Positions 57,001 through 60,000 of a stretch of 64,000 nt of DNA are shown here, one piece after another. Made by a program: the position numbers. The first letter of the stretch is position 1; every line of letters starts with the position of its first letter. Location: the NCBI RefSeq assembly GCF_053078305.1, contig NZ_CP166879.1. One strand, 5' to 3'.

Positions 57001-60000
57001 ACGTATCACCGATGAGATGCTGATGTCGGCAAGTGAAACGCTGGCGCAGTATTCACCATTGGTGCTGAACGGCGAAGGTATGGTACTGCCGGAACTGAAA
57101 GATATTCAGAAAGTCTCCCGCGCAATTGCGTTTGCGGTTGGCAAAATGGCGCAGCAGCAAGGCGTGGCGGTGAAAACCTCTGCCGAAGCCCTGCAACAGG
57201 CCATTGACGATAATTTCTGGCAAGCCGAATACCGCGACTACCGCCGTACCTCCATCTAAGCCTGCGCCCGGTAGTGAAGGCTACCGGGCAATTTCCCTCT
57301 CCCTTTTTCAGATCTCATCCATACTGGGTAGTGGCGAATAAATCTCATTTGCCTCACCTGCTATGCAGAACATCATCCGAAAAGGAGGAACTATGAAGGC
57401 TGCAGTTGTTACGAAGGATCATCATGTTGACGTTACGGATAAAACACTGCGCTCACTGAAACATGGCGAAGCCCTGCTGAAAATGGAGTGTTGTGGTGTA
57501 TGTCATACCGATCTTCATGTTAAGAATGGCGATTTTGGTGACAAAACCGGCGTAATTCTGGGCCATGAAGGGATTGGTGTGGTGGCAGAAGTGGGTCCAG
57601 GTGTCACCTCATTAAAACCAGGCGATCGTGCCAGCGTGGCGTGGTTCTACGAAGGATGCGGTCATTGCGAATACTGTAACAGTGGTAACGAAACGCTCTG
57701 CCGTTCAGTTAAAAATGCCGGATACAGCGTTGATGGCGGGATGGCGGAAGAGTGCATCGTGGTCGCCGATTACGCGGTAAAAGTGCCAGATGGTCTGGAC
57801 TCGGCGGCGGCCAGCAGCATTACCTGTGCGGGGGTCACCACCTACAAAGCCGTTAAGCTGTCAAAAATTCGTCCCGGGCAGTGGATTGCTATCTACGGTC
57901 TTGGCGGTCTGGGTAACCTCGCCCTGCAATACGCGAAGAATGTCTTTAACGCGAAAGTGATCGCCATTGATGTCAATGATGAGCAGTTAAAACTGGCAAC
58001 CGAAATGGGTGCAGATTTAGCGATTAACTCACGCACCGAAGACGCCGCCAAAATTGTGCAGGAGAAAACCGGTGGCGCTCACGCTGCGGTGGTAACAGCA
58101 GTAGCTAAAGCTGCGTTTAACTCGGCAGTTGATGCAGTCCGTGCAGGTGGTCGTGTTGTGGCTGTCGGTCTGCCGCCGGAGTCTATGAGCCTGGATATCC
58201 CACGTCTTGTGCTGGATGGCATTGAAGTGGTCGGTTCGCTGGTCGGCACGCGCCAGGATCTAACTGAAGCCTTCCAGTTTGCGGCCGAAGGCAAAGTGGT
58301 GCCGAAAGTCGCCCTGCGTCCGTTAGCGGACATCAACACCATCTTTACCGAGATGGAAGAAGGCAAAATCCGTGGCCGTATGGTGATTGATTTCCGCCGC
58401 TAAGAGGCCTTTGCTGCGACTGCCAGTCCTGGTGTCGCAGCATCGCACACTCTCCAACATGAAATGGCTAAATGGATTATTGTTGCGTAGGAAGGAACAA
58501 TAATGATAGTGTTCCCAGTGAAGGAACACTACTGAGAGTAAAGACACTAATGAAAATGGCCAATCATCCCCGCCCGGGGGACATTATTCAGGAATCACTG
58601 GACGAACTTAATGTCAGCCTGCGCGAGTTTGCCAGAGCAATGGAAATTGCGCCCTCAACGGCAAGCCGATTGCTGACCGGAAAAGCAGCTTTGACGCCTG
58701 AAATGGCAATTAAACTTTCCGTGGTGATCGGCAGTTCGCCGCAAATGTGGCTGAATCTGCAAAACGCCTGGAGTCTGGCAGAGGCTGAAAAAACGGTGGA
58801 TGTGTCGCGATTACGCCGTCTGGTTACGCAATAAAAAATGGCACCTTATAAAGCGCCATTTGAAACTGATGACAAATGCAACATTGCCTGATGCGCTACG
58901 CTTATCAGGCCTACACGTTCACTGCAATCTATTGTATTTGAAGGGTTTTCATGCCGGATAAGGCATTCACGACGCATCCGGGATGAACAAAGCCCACGTT
59001 GTCTACAATATGAAAATGGCGCCTTTTACAGCGCCATTTTCAGCTTAAAGTTCAATAGAGATTATATCCCTTCTTCACTCTCTTTTTTCGCTTCTGCCTT
59101 CTCGATTTCACGATACCAGCGCGGATGGTGTTTCTTCGCCCAGCGACGGCTCACCTTCCCTTCGATCATCCCTTTAATCGATCCTTTCACCCAGAATGCC
59201 ATATACATATGGATCAGGATGGCGTGGATCAGGATGATACCCGCAGCCGCGTGGATCAGCAGGCTGTAGCGAACAACCTGCATCGGGAAGTACTGCGCAA
59301 AGTACGGACGCCAGATAATCACCCCGGTCACCAGCAGCACGAAAATCATGCTCATGATCGACCAGAACATCATCTTTTGCCCGGCGTTGTACTTACCGAC
59401 ATCCGCCACTTTGTGCTCATTGCCTTTTAATACTTCGACAATGTTCAACAGCCACGGAATATCTTTCTTATCCGGGATGTTGTGATGCACAAAACGCACA
59501 AACATAAACATCAGTGCGACGAAAATCGCAATGCCGAAGAACGGGTGCAAAATGCGTCCCATCTGCGGCGTACCGAAGGTTTGCGTCAGCCATTGCAGCG
59601 TCGGGAAGAAGAACGAAATCCCGGACAGCGCCACCAGGAAGAAGCAAATCACCACGGTCCAGTGACAGGCGCGATCAATAAATTTGGTGCGCACAATCAT
59701 TTTCGACTTACTCATGATGATCCTCCTCGTCATCGTCCACTTCCTTATTCGGGCCAATACCGATGTAATGGAAAATCAACCCTGCAAAAGTGGCAATAAA
59801 GCCAGCCGCTGCCAGCGGTTTCAACGCGCCTTTCCACAGGCTTACCGAGGTGTCGATCTTCGGATCTTTCGGCAGACCGTGATACAGCTCCGGCTGATCG
59901 GCGTGATGCAGCACGTACATAACGTGCGTACCACCGACCCCTTCCGGGTTGTAGACGCCAGCATGTTCGTAACCACGCGCTTTCAGTTTCGCCACGCGCT

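What the first reader, a model, noticed from the sequence alone, without database searches (positions are those of the whole stretch)
58836..59040. REP pair bracketed by two near-identical hairpins between yddM and fdnI
Two REP units in inverted orientation (58886-58914 and 58953-58982) lie between two copies of a 28-bp hairpin (AAAATGGCaCC…GCGCCATTT at 58836-58862 and AAAATGGCGCC…GCGCCATTTT at 59013-59040). This gives a nested symmetric structure of about 200 bp. The outer hairpins can act as terminators for the convergent yddM and fdnI transcripts, and the inner REPs may stabilise the 3' ends.
Basis: seen in the sequence. Interest (0 to 1): 0.35.

Follow-up and report, generated by a model that had tools for sequence, protein, structure and literature searches.

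The report
REP pair inside a duplicated terminator
This is an ordinary E. coli repeat element (a BIME-1 pair of REP palindromes) sitting between two copies of the terminator hairpin shared by the convergent genes yddM and fdnI; the hairpin-plus-element unit of 178 bp is present 0, 1 or 2 or more times in different E. coli strains.

Summary
Two 27-nt hairpins (58835-58861 and 59013-59040, 24/27 identical) bracket two inverted REPs. The hairpins are direct repeats exactly 178 bp apart.

The inner 151 bp (58862-59012) is a BIME-1: a Z1 REP, a long L-type linker, an inverted Y REP and conserved outer motifs. Paralogues lie at fepA-entD and rpn-yjiR.

The hairpin is specific to this locus. Citrobacter and Pluralibacter, and about 44% of 5,426 E. 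coli genomes, carry one hairpin and no REP. About 38% of E. coli genomes have the window's single unit. 17.5% (K-12 included) have two or more tandem units. E. albertii also has the one-unit form.

So the finding is one allele of a copy-number polymorphism in which the terminator palindrome was duplicated around a BIME-1.

On function, the right hairpin is a plausible two-way intrinsic terminator. The left hairpin is weak in the yddM sense and better in the fdnI sense. Published K-12 data show Rho-dependent termination of yddM-sense transcripts here, and no mapped 3' ends in the spacer.

The element kind and the K-12 locus (REP120) are already known, so interest is low. The only mildly new point is the duplication of the whole palindrome. 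An independent insertion at the same terminator in one Citrobacter amalonaticus genome shows the same footprint.

The parts
58550..58834 (+). yddM (HigA-family antitoxin-like regulator, 94 aa). Its stop codon TAA is at 58832-58834, directly abutting the left hairpin.
   Evidence: ORF list. It is 100% identical to the RefSeq YddM protein WP_000781370.1 at the orthologous loci.
58835..58861 (.). Left copy of the terminator palindrome (AAAATGGCACCTTATAAAGCGCCATTT). It is weak as RNA in the yddM sense and better in the fdnI sense.
   Evidence: Direct repeat D1 and inverted repeat I6. Terminator-like site on the - strand. Folding energies -8.2 and -14.7 kcal/mol.
58862..58885 (+). Left outer motif of the BIME-1 (GAAACTGATGACAAATGCAACATT).
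   Evidence: Conserved in the paralogues at rpn-yjiR and fepA-entD and in the E. albertii and K-12 orthologues.
58886..58914 (+). Z1-type REP, read as an iREP on the + strand (3' CTAC). The GTAG is intact on the - strand.
   Evidence: Sequence. Typed against the Y and Z2 sequences in Nunvar 2010 Table 1 and the definitions in Ton-Hoang 2012. Invariant in alignment A1.
58915..58952 (-). Long tail-to-tail linker: a diverged BIME-1 L motif. It carries a degenerate IHF-like site, ATACAATAGATTG, at 58925-58937 on the - strand.
   Evidence: Rfam ES036 (RF02751; its consensus is the L linker plus GTAGGCC) scores 30.7 bits here against a gathering score of 37.6. The paralogues score 40.5 and 39.9. IHF consensus scan.
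58953..58982 (+). Y-type REP, inverted relative to Z1. It is decayed: the GTAG is replaced by CATG and the upper stem has two mismatches.
   Evidence: (I7). Strain NCTC9112, E. albertii and the paralogues keep GTAGGCCGGATAAGG.
58983..59012 (+). Right outer motif of the BIME-1 (ATGAACAAAGCCCACGTTGTCTACAATATG). It is an imperfect inverted copy of the left outer motif.
   Evidence: Conserved in the paralogues and orthologues. Internal repeat D2.
59013..59040 (.). Right copy of the terminator palindrome. The perfect 12-bp stem spans 59011-59042. It is orthologous to the single fdnI/yddM terminator of the outgroups and is a plausible bidirectional intrinsic terminator.
   Evidence: Inverted repeat I5. 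Energies -18.7 and -20.8 kcal/mol. Outgroup hairpins GGCGCTGAAAA(A)GGCGCC in Citrobacter L019 and L059.
59062..59715 (-). fdnI (formate dehydrogenase-N gamma subunit). Its stop codon lies 21 nt from the right hairpin.
   Evidence: ORF list. RefSeq annotation of the orthologous loci.

Best explanation
Identity (shown). The 227-bp yddM-fdnI spacer is one 'filled' allele of an insertion/copy-number polymorphism.

Ancestral state (shown). It was a single palindromic, two-way terminator shared by the convergent genes fdnI and yddM.

Origin (inferred). A 151-bp BIME-1 came to lie at that terminator in an ancestor of E. coli and E. albertii. The BIME-1 consists of an outer motif, a Z1 REP, an L-type linker, an inverted Y REP and a second outer motif. 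The whole 27-bp palindrome ended up on both sides of it, like a target duplication.

Dynamics (copy numbers shown, mechanism inferred). The resulting 178-bp unit (palindrome plus BIME-1) now behaves as a tandem repeat. The duplicated hairpins give homology for unequal exchange or slippage. E. coli strains carry 0, 1 or 2 or more units; K-12 has two.

Function (inferred from structure).
- The right hairpin is the working intrinsic terminator of fdnGHI.
- The left hairpin is a back-up for fdnI-sense read-through.
- yddM transcripts mostly pass the weak left hairpin and carry the REP pair in their 3' UTR.

Function (shown only for K-12, published data). yddM-sense transcripts end by Rho-dependent termination around or beyond the right hairpin.

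State of the BIME-1 copy. It is decaying. The Y REP has lost its GTAG and the IHF-like core has an extra mismatch. It is best read as a tolerated repeat in a 3' UTR, not as a purpose-built module.
For: Structure:
- The direct repeat is 27 nt, 89% identical, with a 178-bp period.
- In K-12, Tandem Repeats Finder gives period 178, 2.1 copies and 97% matches.
- The middle K-12 hairpin is right-type joined to the left-type flank, as unequal exchange predicts.

Alleles in 5,426 E. coli genomes:
- One unit: 2,069 genomes.
- Two or more units: 947 genomes.
- Single hairpin without REP: about 37-43%.
- IS200C next to the single hairpin: about 5-7%.

Outgroups:
- One hairpin between fdnI and yddM in Citrobacter L015, L019 and L059 and in Pluralibacter L039.
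- One unit in E. albertii L007 and in the divergent lineage L010.

BIME-1 identity:
- Z2 is the long REP, so the short REP here is Z1.
- Z1 plus Y with a long linker is the BIME-1 definition.
- The paralogues at rpn-yjiR and fepA-entD share both outer motifs. Alignment A1 has 83% mean column identity.
- The element boundaries abut the hairpins exactly: 151 + 27 = 178.

Locus specificity and control:
- The hairpin is specific to this locus: median 1 place per genome.
- The fepA-entD BIME-1 has no flanking repeat and is fixed in 5,345 of 5,426 genomes.

Function:
- Hairpin energies and tails.
- Rho termination region at MG1655 1551885(-).
- An in-vitro Rho-binding region overlaps REP120.
Against: - The direction of change within E. 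coli is unresolved. The single hairpin of 'empty' alleles (GGCGCTTCTTAAAGCGCC) differs at 3-4 positions from both the left and the right copy. It is not a simple chimera of the two. 'Empty' may therefore be retained ancestral, anciently deleted or imported. No phylogeny-aware reconstruction was done.
- The duplication could have preceded the insertion.
- A 27-bp target duplication is not expected from the RAYT/IS200-type enzymes linked to REPs.
- No transcript 3' ends are mapped in the spacer.
- The Rho data come from the two-unit K-12 allele, rest on low read counts (71 to 10 reads untreated) and use 800-nt windows.
- fdnGHI is not expressed under the aerobic conditions sampled, so the fdnI-sense roles are untested.
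Confidence: 0.8

Rival explanations
1. A purpose-built nested 3'-end module. Each outer hairpin terminates its adjacent gene, and the inner REPs protect both 3' ends from exonucleases.
For: - There are four stable local hairpins.
- REPs between convergent genes correlate with higher expression of both genes genome-wide (Harris 2026 preprint).
- The one-unit form is conserved between E. coli and E. albertii.
Against: - The left hairpin is weak in the yddM sense.
- yddM-sense termination in K-12 depends on Rho.
- About 44% of E. coli genomes and all Citrobacter outgroups examined that carry yddM next to fdnI have no REP pair there.
- Natural variants delete the right hairpin or part of the Y REP.
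- The Y REP and the IHF-like core are decayed.
- Terminal REPs show no global half-life effect.
Confidence: 0.2
2. The two hairpins are independent terminators, one per gene, that resemble each other by convergence. The REP pair simply landed between them.
For: Both hairpins sit at terminator-typical distances from their stop codons: 0 nt from yddM and 21 nt from fdnI.
Against: - They are 24/27 identical, loop bases included, against 0.02 expected matches by chance.
- Outgroups and 'empty' alleles have one hairpin that serves both genes at the same two distances.
- The indel is exactly hairpin plus BIME-1 (178 bp).
Confidence: 0.03
3. The left hairpin arose by plain tandem duplication or unequal exchange before or independently of the insertion, or was imported by recombination. 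On this view it is not a footprint of the insertion event.
For: - Unequal exchange clearly operates here: the K-12 two-unit allele has a chimeric middle hairpin.
- The palindrome is mutable. It shows a loop flip in L088 and small deletions in L089 and L091.
- REP-associated Y1 transposases are not expected to make long target duplications.
Against: - No allele with two hairpins and no insert was seen among the loci examined.
- The BIME-1 boundaries, defined independently from the paralogues, abut the two palindromes to the nucleotide.
- An independent 140-bp insertion at the orthologous terminator in C. amalonaticus L011 is flanked by a perfect 23-bp duplication of that palindrome.
Confidence: 0.3
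4. The spacer encodes a small RNA gene of the ES036/CssrF or naRNA type.
For: Sub-threshold Rfam hits: ES036 at 30.7 bits (E = 0.0012) and naRNA4 at 16-20 bits.
Against: - Both scores are below the gathering thresholds.
- The ES036 consensus is simply the BIME-1 L linker plus GTAGGCC. It matches other BIME-1 copies better. The hits therefore reflect repeat-family similarity.
- There is no promoter-like site in 58300-59300.
- No Term-seq 3' end lies in the spacer.
Confidence: 0.03

Closest known systems
BIME-1 (also called RIB or RIP elements): a Z1 and a Y REP in inverted orientation around a long L linker that often carries an IHF site, found at the 3' ends of transcription units
   Same: - Z1 REP, inverted Y REP and tail-to-tail arrangement.
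- A 38-nt linker related to the L motif.
- Conserved outer motifs shared with the fepA-entD and rpn-yjiR copies.
- Location between convergent 3' ends.
   Different: - The linker scores below the Rfam ES036 threshold.
- The IHF-like core has 2 mismatches to the consensus, against 1 in the paralogues.
- The Y REP lacks GTAG.
- BIME-1 is described as single-copy, yet K-12 carries two tandem copies here. The repeat unit includes a non-BIME terminator palindrome.
BIME-2 and atypical BIME arrays (for example REP325/naRNA), whose tandem copy number varies between strains
   Same: Tandem repetition with strain-to-strain variation in copy number (Ton-Hoang 2012).
   Different: - BIME-2 uses Z2 (the long REP) with short S linkers and units of about 77-100 bp.
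- Here the REP is Z1 and the linker is long.
- The period is 178 bp because a terminator hairpin is part of the unit.
Bidirectional intrinsic terminators between convergent genes
   Same: - The right hairpin, and the single hairpin of 'empty' alleles, are GC-cored palindromes with an A-tract on one side and a T-tract on the other.
- They are stable on both strands and shared by two convergent genes.
   Different: - Here the terminator is duplicated, and one copy has degenerated asymmetrically.
- Termination was not measured.
- K-12 data point to a large Rho-dependent component in the yddM sense.
MITE-type non-autonomous elements (terminal inverted repeats plus a target-site duplication)
   Same: The 151-bp insert has imperfect inverted outer motifs (CTGATGACAAA / TTGTCTACAAT) and is flanked by a direct duplication of host sequence.
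   Different: - The duplication is 27 bp and coincides with a whole palindrome, far longer than usual target duplications.
- The paralogous copies show no flanking duplication.
- No cognate transposase was identified.

Membership tests
REP / palindromic unit (E. coli Y, Z1 and Z2 types) | An imperfect palindrome of 30-40 nt matching a Y or Z consensus | tested here: met
   58886-58910 is GCCTGATGCGCTACGCTTATCAGGC, the short Z type. 58953-58982 matches the Y sequence GGATAAGGCGTTCACGCCGCATCCGGC with 3 substitutions.
REP / palindromic unit (E. coli Y, Z1 and Z2 types) | A conserved GTAG tetranucleotide at the foot of the palindrome, required for TnpA-REP binding | tested here: inconclusive
   Z1 keeps GTAG (as CTAC at 58911-58914 on the + strand). 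In the window and in K-12 the Y REP has CATG instead. NCTC9112, E. albertii and the paralogues keep GTAG.
BIME-1 | One Z1 and one Y REP in inverse orientation | tested here: met
   (I12, I15). Typing via (Z2 is the long form, so this REP is Z1) and the definition.
BIME-1 | A long, conserved L linker, frequently with an IHF site | tested here: inconclusive
   - The linker is 38 nt.
- Rfam ES036 (the L-linker consensus) scores 30.7 bits against a gathering score of 37.6. The paralogues pass at 40.5 and 39.9.
- The IHF-like core has 2 mismatches, which is chance level. The paralogues have 1.
- IHF binding cannot be tested with these tools.
BIME-1 | Occurs as a single copy at a locus | tested here: inconclusive
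   It is single in the window. Two or more tandem copies are present in 947 E. coli genomes, K-12 included.
BIME-2 | Z2 (long) REP plus Y REP with a short S linker, in tandem arrays | tested here: not met
   The REP is the short Z1 type and the linker is long. My initial Z2/BIME-2 guess was wrong.
Rho-independent (intrinsic) terminator | A GC-rich stem-loop followed directly by a U-rich tract on the transcribed strand | tested here: inconclusive
   - Right hairpin: -18.7 and -20.8 kcal/mol, tails UUUUCAGCUU (+ strand) and UUUUCAUAUU (- strand).
- Left hairpin: -8.2 kcal/mol with tail UUUGAAAC (+ strand), and -14.7 kcal/mol with tail UUUUUUAUUG (- strand).
- The strict consensus scan flagged only the left hairpin on the - strand.
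Rho-independent (intrinsic) terminator | Transcript 3' ends at the hairpin in vivo, insensitive to Rho inhibition | tested here: not met
   This applies to K-12 and published data only.
- No Term-seq 3' end lies at MG1655 positions 15519xx-15523xx.
- yddM-sense read-through rises with bicyclomycin: Rho score 9.25.
- The fdnI sense was not assayed, because the growth conditions were aerobic.
   A 51-nt query on the right hairpin gives a median of 1 place per genome across 5,313 genomes, all at this locus in the rows listed. There are only 2 matches in the window.
MITE (terminal inverted repeats plus target-site duplication) | Terminal inverted repeats, and a direct duplication of the target present once at empty sites | tested here: inconclusive
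   - The inverted ends are imperfect.
- The hairpin is present once in empty alleles and outgroups and twice in filled alleles.
- The paralogous copies lack any duplication.
- The single hairpin of empty alleles differs at 3-4 bases from both copies.

The most novel reading that the evidence does not exclude
Insertion of BIME-1-like, MITE-like elements at a terminator palindrome duplicates the entire palindrome, for example through nicks at the two bases of an extruded cruciform or hairpin. This would leave a 'palindrome-sized target duplication'.

Two independent events at the orthologous fdnI terminator would then be footprints of one mechanism:
- the 151-bp BIME-1 in Escherichia, flanked by a diverged 27-bp duplication;
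- a 140-bp element in C. amalonaticus L011, whose related ends are (C/G)AGA(C/G)TG(C/A)TGACAAA, flanked by a perfect 23-bp duplication.

The duplication then seeds copy-number instability of the locus.
Probability: 0.15. Interest if true: 0.5.

Novelty: already known. Interest (0 to 1): 0.2.

Why it matters
For annotation, this is a routine REP/BIME-1 element (K-12 name REP120) plus a terminator, and nothing new needs to be filed.

There are three modest points of value.
1. The locus is a clean natural series of 0, 1 and 2 or more units, plus deletion variants. It could be used to test what REPs and duplicated terminators do to convergent 3' ends.
2. K-12, the reference strain for 3'-end and Rho maps, carries the minority two-unit allele. 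Its maps do not transfer directly to most strains.
3. The exact duplication of the palindrome around the insert is seen twice independently. It is a small clue to how BIME-type elements enter terminators, which is still mechanistically open.

Tried and rejected
1. I first called the short REP Z2 and the pair BIME-2. Nunvar 2010 Table 1 shows that Z2 is the long form, so I corrected this to Z1 and BIME-1.
2. I suspected the 178-bp repeat was the 179-bp MLVA locus ms09. None of the ms06-ms32 primers matches the window at this locus, so it is a different locus.
3. The hairpin as a dispersed repeat family: rejected.
4. The linker as a high-copy motif detectable by blastn: only about 2 places per genome. 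Family membership came instead from the Rfam ES036 model and the paralogues.
5. An sRNA reading of the ES036 and naRNA4 hits: rejected, because they reflect repeat similarity.
6. The C. amalonaticus 140-bp insert has no Rfam family and no match in E. coli genomes. Its identity remains unknown.
7. The RefSeq MG1655 record lists no REP features in the region fetched. The name REP120 came from a preprint supplement.
8. The original BIME and RIB papers (PMC333889, PMC413762) are not held. The definitions rest on Ton-Hoang 2012.
9. A K-12 two-unit query could not separate one-unit from two-unit alleles, because the tool joins pieces. I replaced it with a junction-specific query.
10. I looked for an empty site at the fepA-entD BIME-1, to test whether a duplication is general. 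That copy is fixed, so there is no empty site to compare.
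Full report
**1. Observation**

The spacer between yddM (58550-58834, + strand) and fdnI (59062-59715, - strand) is 227 bp. It contains these features:
- a hairpin at 58835-58861;
- a REP at 58886-58914;
- an inverted REP at 58953-58982;
- a hairpin at 59013-59040, whose perfect stem spans 59011-59042.

The two hairpins are 24/27 identical as direct repeats, 178 bp apart. As inverted repeats they are only 81% complementary. A hairpin pattern allowing two mismatches occurs only at these two places in 64 kb, against 0.02 expected. Both strands fold better than shuffled controls (z = -4.7 and -3.9), with four local hairpins rather than long-range pairing. The 'nested symmetry' is what one gets from two direct copies of a palindrome around a quasi-palindromic insert.

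**2. What the inner part is**

The left REP (GCCTGATGCGCTACGCTTATCAGGC+CTAC) is the short Z type. Nunvar 2010 Table 1 gives the REPs that flank the E. coli RAYT gene, described there as Y and Z2. In that table Z2 is the long GATAAGACGCGCCAGCGTCGCATCAGGCA form. The REP here is therefore Z1, and my first guess of Z2 was wrong. The right REP is an inverted Y.

Ton-Hoang 2012 defines BIME-1 as Z1 plus Y separated by a long, conserved L linker that often carries an IHF site. BIME-2 is defined as Z2 plus Y with short linkers in tandem arrays. The tail-to-tail pair with a 38-nt linker is thus BIME-1-like.

Evidence on the linker:
- The Rfam family ES036 has as its consensus the L linker plus GTAGGCC. 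It scores 30.7 bits on this linker, below its gathering score of 37.6.
- It scores 40.5 and 39.9 bits on two paralogous copies.

Those paralogues lie at rpn-yjiR (L086) and fepA-entD (L087). They share the REPs and linker, and also both outer flanks: AGA(A/G)ACTGATGACAAACGC on one side and ATGAAC.A.GC.CAC.TTGTC.ACAAT.TG on the other. Alignment A1 has 83% mean column identity.

Defined in this way, the element occupies window 58862-59012 (151 bp) and abuts both hairpins to the nucleotide. 151 + 27 = 178.

This copy is decayed:
- The Y REP has CATG where NCTC9112, E. albertii and the paralogues have GTAG.
- Its upper stem carries two mismatches.
- The IHF-like core is ATACAATAGATTG, with 2 mismatches to WATCAANNNNTTR, which is chance level. 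The paralogues have ATTCAATA(G/T)ATTG, with 1 mismatch.

**3. What the hairpins are**

The hairpin is not a dispersed family. A 51-nt query on the right hairpin finds a median of one place per genome in 5,313 E. coli genomes.

Outgroup loci were fetched through FdnI. They show the following:
- Citrobacter spp. (L015, L019, L059) and Pluralibacter (L039) have a single hairpin between the convergent genes fdnI and yddM. Examples are AAAAATGGCGCTGAAAAGGCGCCATTTTTTT and AAAAATGGCGCTACCGATGTAGCGCCATTTTTTT.
- Some Citrobacter (L022, L024, L025) have that hairpin plus one REP and no duplication.
- Salmonella has a hairpin, but it is directly followed by adhP.
- E. albertii (L007) and a divergent Escherichia lineage (L010) have two hairpins plus the BIME-1, as in the window.

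The right hairpin is therefore the orthologue of an old shared terminator, and the left one is a copy of it.

**4. Polymorphism within E. coli**

Figures are for 5,426 complete genomes.

| Allele | Genomes | Source |
|---|---|---|
| Window-like, one unit | 2,069 (38%) | |
| Junction specific to two or more units | 947 (17.5%) | |
| Single hairpin, no REP | about 37-43% | |
| Single hairpin with IS200C beside it | about 5-7% | |

- K-12 is in the class with two or more units. Tandem Repeats Finder gives period 178, 2.1 copies and 97% matches.
- The middle K-12 hairpin has a right-type body joined to the left-type flank. This is the signature of unequal exchange within the shared 3' arm.
- The single hairpin reads AAAAAATGGCGCTTCTTAAAGCGCCATTTT.
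- One genome gave four places for the junction query, so alleles with three or four units may exist. This was not followed up.

The core of the single hairpin in 'empty' alleles (GGCGCTTCTTAAAGCGCC) differs at 3-4 positions from both the left and the right copy. It is identical to the hairpin of Escherichia sp. MOD1-EC7003 (L006). The common empty allele is therefore not a recent left/right recombinant. Both allele classes are old, and the direction of change within E. coli is unresolved.

As a control, the fepA-entD BIME-1 has no flanking direct repeat and is fixed in 5,345 of 5,426 genomes. This is consistent with the duplicated hairpins being the reason this locus is unstable.

Small variants confirm that the region is mutable:
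- the right hairpin is deleted in L089;
- 17 bp are lost from the Y REP in L090;
- the 5' A-tract of the right hairpin is lost in L091;
- the loop of the single hairpin is inverted in L088.

**5. Function**

ViennaRNA energies and tails:

| Hairpin | yddM sense (+) | fdnI sense (-) |
|---|---|---|
| Right | -18.7 kcal/mol, tail UUUUCAGCUU | -20.8 kcal/mol, tail UUUUCAUAUU |
| Left | -8.2 kcal/mol, tail UUUGAAAC | -14.7 kcal/mol, tail UUUUUUAUUG |
| Single ('empty' allele) | -16.2 kcal/mol | -17.3 kcal/mol |

The strict consensus scan flagged only one site within the spacer, the left hairpin on the - strand. Inferred roles are as follows:
- The right hairpin terminates fdnGHI and is the better terminator for yddM.
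- The left hairpin is a back-up for fdnI-sense read-through and a poor yddM terminator.
- The REP pair therefore lies in the yddM 3' UTR.

Published K-12 data (Adams 2021, PMC7815308) add the following:
- There is a Rho termination region at 1551885(-), which is yddM-sense and antisense to fdnI. Its Rho score is 9.25 with p = 1.6e-12.
- Reads fall from 71 to 10 across this point in untreated cells, against 89 to 116 with bicyclomycin.
- No Term-seq 3' end is listed at 15519xx-15523xx.

The supplement of the Harris 2026 preprint lists the K-12 REP here as REP120 (1552072-1552168). It overlaps an in-vitro Rho-binding region on the same strand. The same preprint reports several genome-wide figures:
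- about 60% of REPs lie between convergent genes;
- about 30% of convergent spacers contain a REP;
- convergent pairs with a REP are more highly expressed;
- terminal REPs show no global effect on half-life.

These data are for the two-unit allele under aerobic growth, with low counts and 800-nt windows. They argue against efficient intrinsic termination of yddM-sense RNA. They say nothing about fdnI.

**6. Origin**

The hairpin occurs once in the outgroups and in empty alleles and twice in filled alleles. The insert boundaries coincide with the edges of the palindrome. The simplest reading is that the palindrome was duplicated in the insertion event.

A second, independent case supports a link:
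- C. amalonaticus L011 carries a 140-bp insert at the orthologous terminator, flanked by a perfect 23-bp duplication of its own hairpin, CAGGCGCTACTCCGGTAGCGCCT.
- Another C. amalonaticus genome (L012) has the single hairpin.
- The inverted ends of the insert (CAGACTGCTGACAAAG, and AGAGTGATGACAAAC on the other strand) resemble the BIME-1 outer motif.
- The insert has no Rfam family and no match in E. coli.

Points against a general mechanism:
- The paralogous BIME-1 copies show no duplication.
- REP-associated Y1 transposases are not expected to create long duplications.
- A prior tandem duplication of the hairpin cannot be excluded.

**7. Verdict**

The element kind (REP/BIME-1), its position at convergent 3' ends, strain-to-strain variation of BIMEs and this very locus in K-12 are all already known. 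The functional reading is only partly supported. The composite 178-bp unit and the palindrome-sized duplication are a minor detail that, as far as I could check, has not been described. Interest is low (0.2).

Noticed in passing
L003 1137-1845 (E. coli 366_BP0076); same site as window ~58835: An IS200C copy is inserted in the A-run between the yddM stop codon and the single hairpin of an 'empty' allele. Spread sampling puts it in about 5-7% of E. coli genomes.
   Followed up: partly
L011 3676-3861 (Citrobacter amalonaticus AUH_CA_2023_1): A 140-bp insert at the orthologous fdnI terminator is flanked by a perfect 23-bp duplication of the hairpin. Its inverted ends resemble the BIME-1 outer motif, and it contains internal hairpins. 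It has no Rfam family and no match in E. coli. L012, another C. amalonaticus genome, has the uninterrupted hairpin.
   Followed up: partly
L088 ~165-195 (E. coli 19SZHZ663Rt): The centre of the single terminator palindrome is inverted (GCGCTTTAAGAAGCGC against the usual GCGCTTCTTAAAGCGC). This is a flip/flop of the loop, typical of template switching in a hairpin.
   Followed up: no
L089, L090, L091 (E. coli HCM-26C-1, OkiPb01701, NCTC9112): Natural micro-deletion alleles. In L089 the right hairpin is deleted outright. L090 has lost 17 bp inside the Y REP. In L091 the right hairpin has lost its 5' AAAAT, while the Y REP keeps the canonical GTAG.
   Followed up: partly
L004 574-851; the corresponding window region 58404-58549 lacks it: Some strains carry a frameshifted RelE/ParE-family (HigB-like) toxin gene directly upstream of yddM. 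The window and K-12 have only 146 bp there, so yddM is an orphan antitoxin-like gene.
   Followed up: no
window ~58569-58581 (MG1655 1552652, - strand): Adams 2021 Term-seq lists a 3' end inside yddM, about 30 nt into the ORF, just after the GC-rich palindrome CCCCGCCCGGGGG. This may be premature termination or processing of yddM.
   Followed up: no
window 58506-58532: A 27-nt palindrome (ATAGTGTTCCCAGTGAAGGAACACTAC) lies just upstream of the yddM start. The scan flags it as terminator-like on the - strand. It could equally be an operator for the HigA-like YddM.
   Followed up: no
window 54125-54170: A second REP pair in the window. It is head to head with a short linker (…AACGCATCAGGCATTCATGCGCCTGACGCGTCATCCGGCA…) and has a different architecture from the BIME-1.
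   Followed up: no
L006 3737-4200 (Escherichia sp. MOD1-EC7003): An extra ORF with a Nudix-box signature (GGGLEHNESFEEAALRELQEETGI, read from the sequence) sits between the single fdnI hairpin and yddM. The hairpin core is identical to that of E. coli 'empty' alleles.
   Followed up: no
E. coli genomes, junction query and right-hairpin query: At least one genome gives 4 places for hairpin or junction queries, which suggests alleles with 3-4 tandem units. The record was not identified.
   Followed up: no
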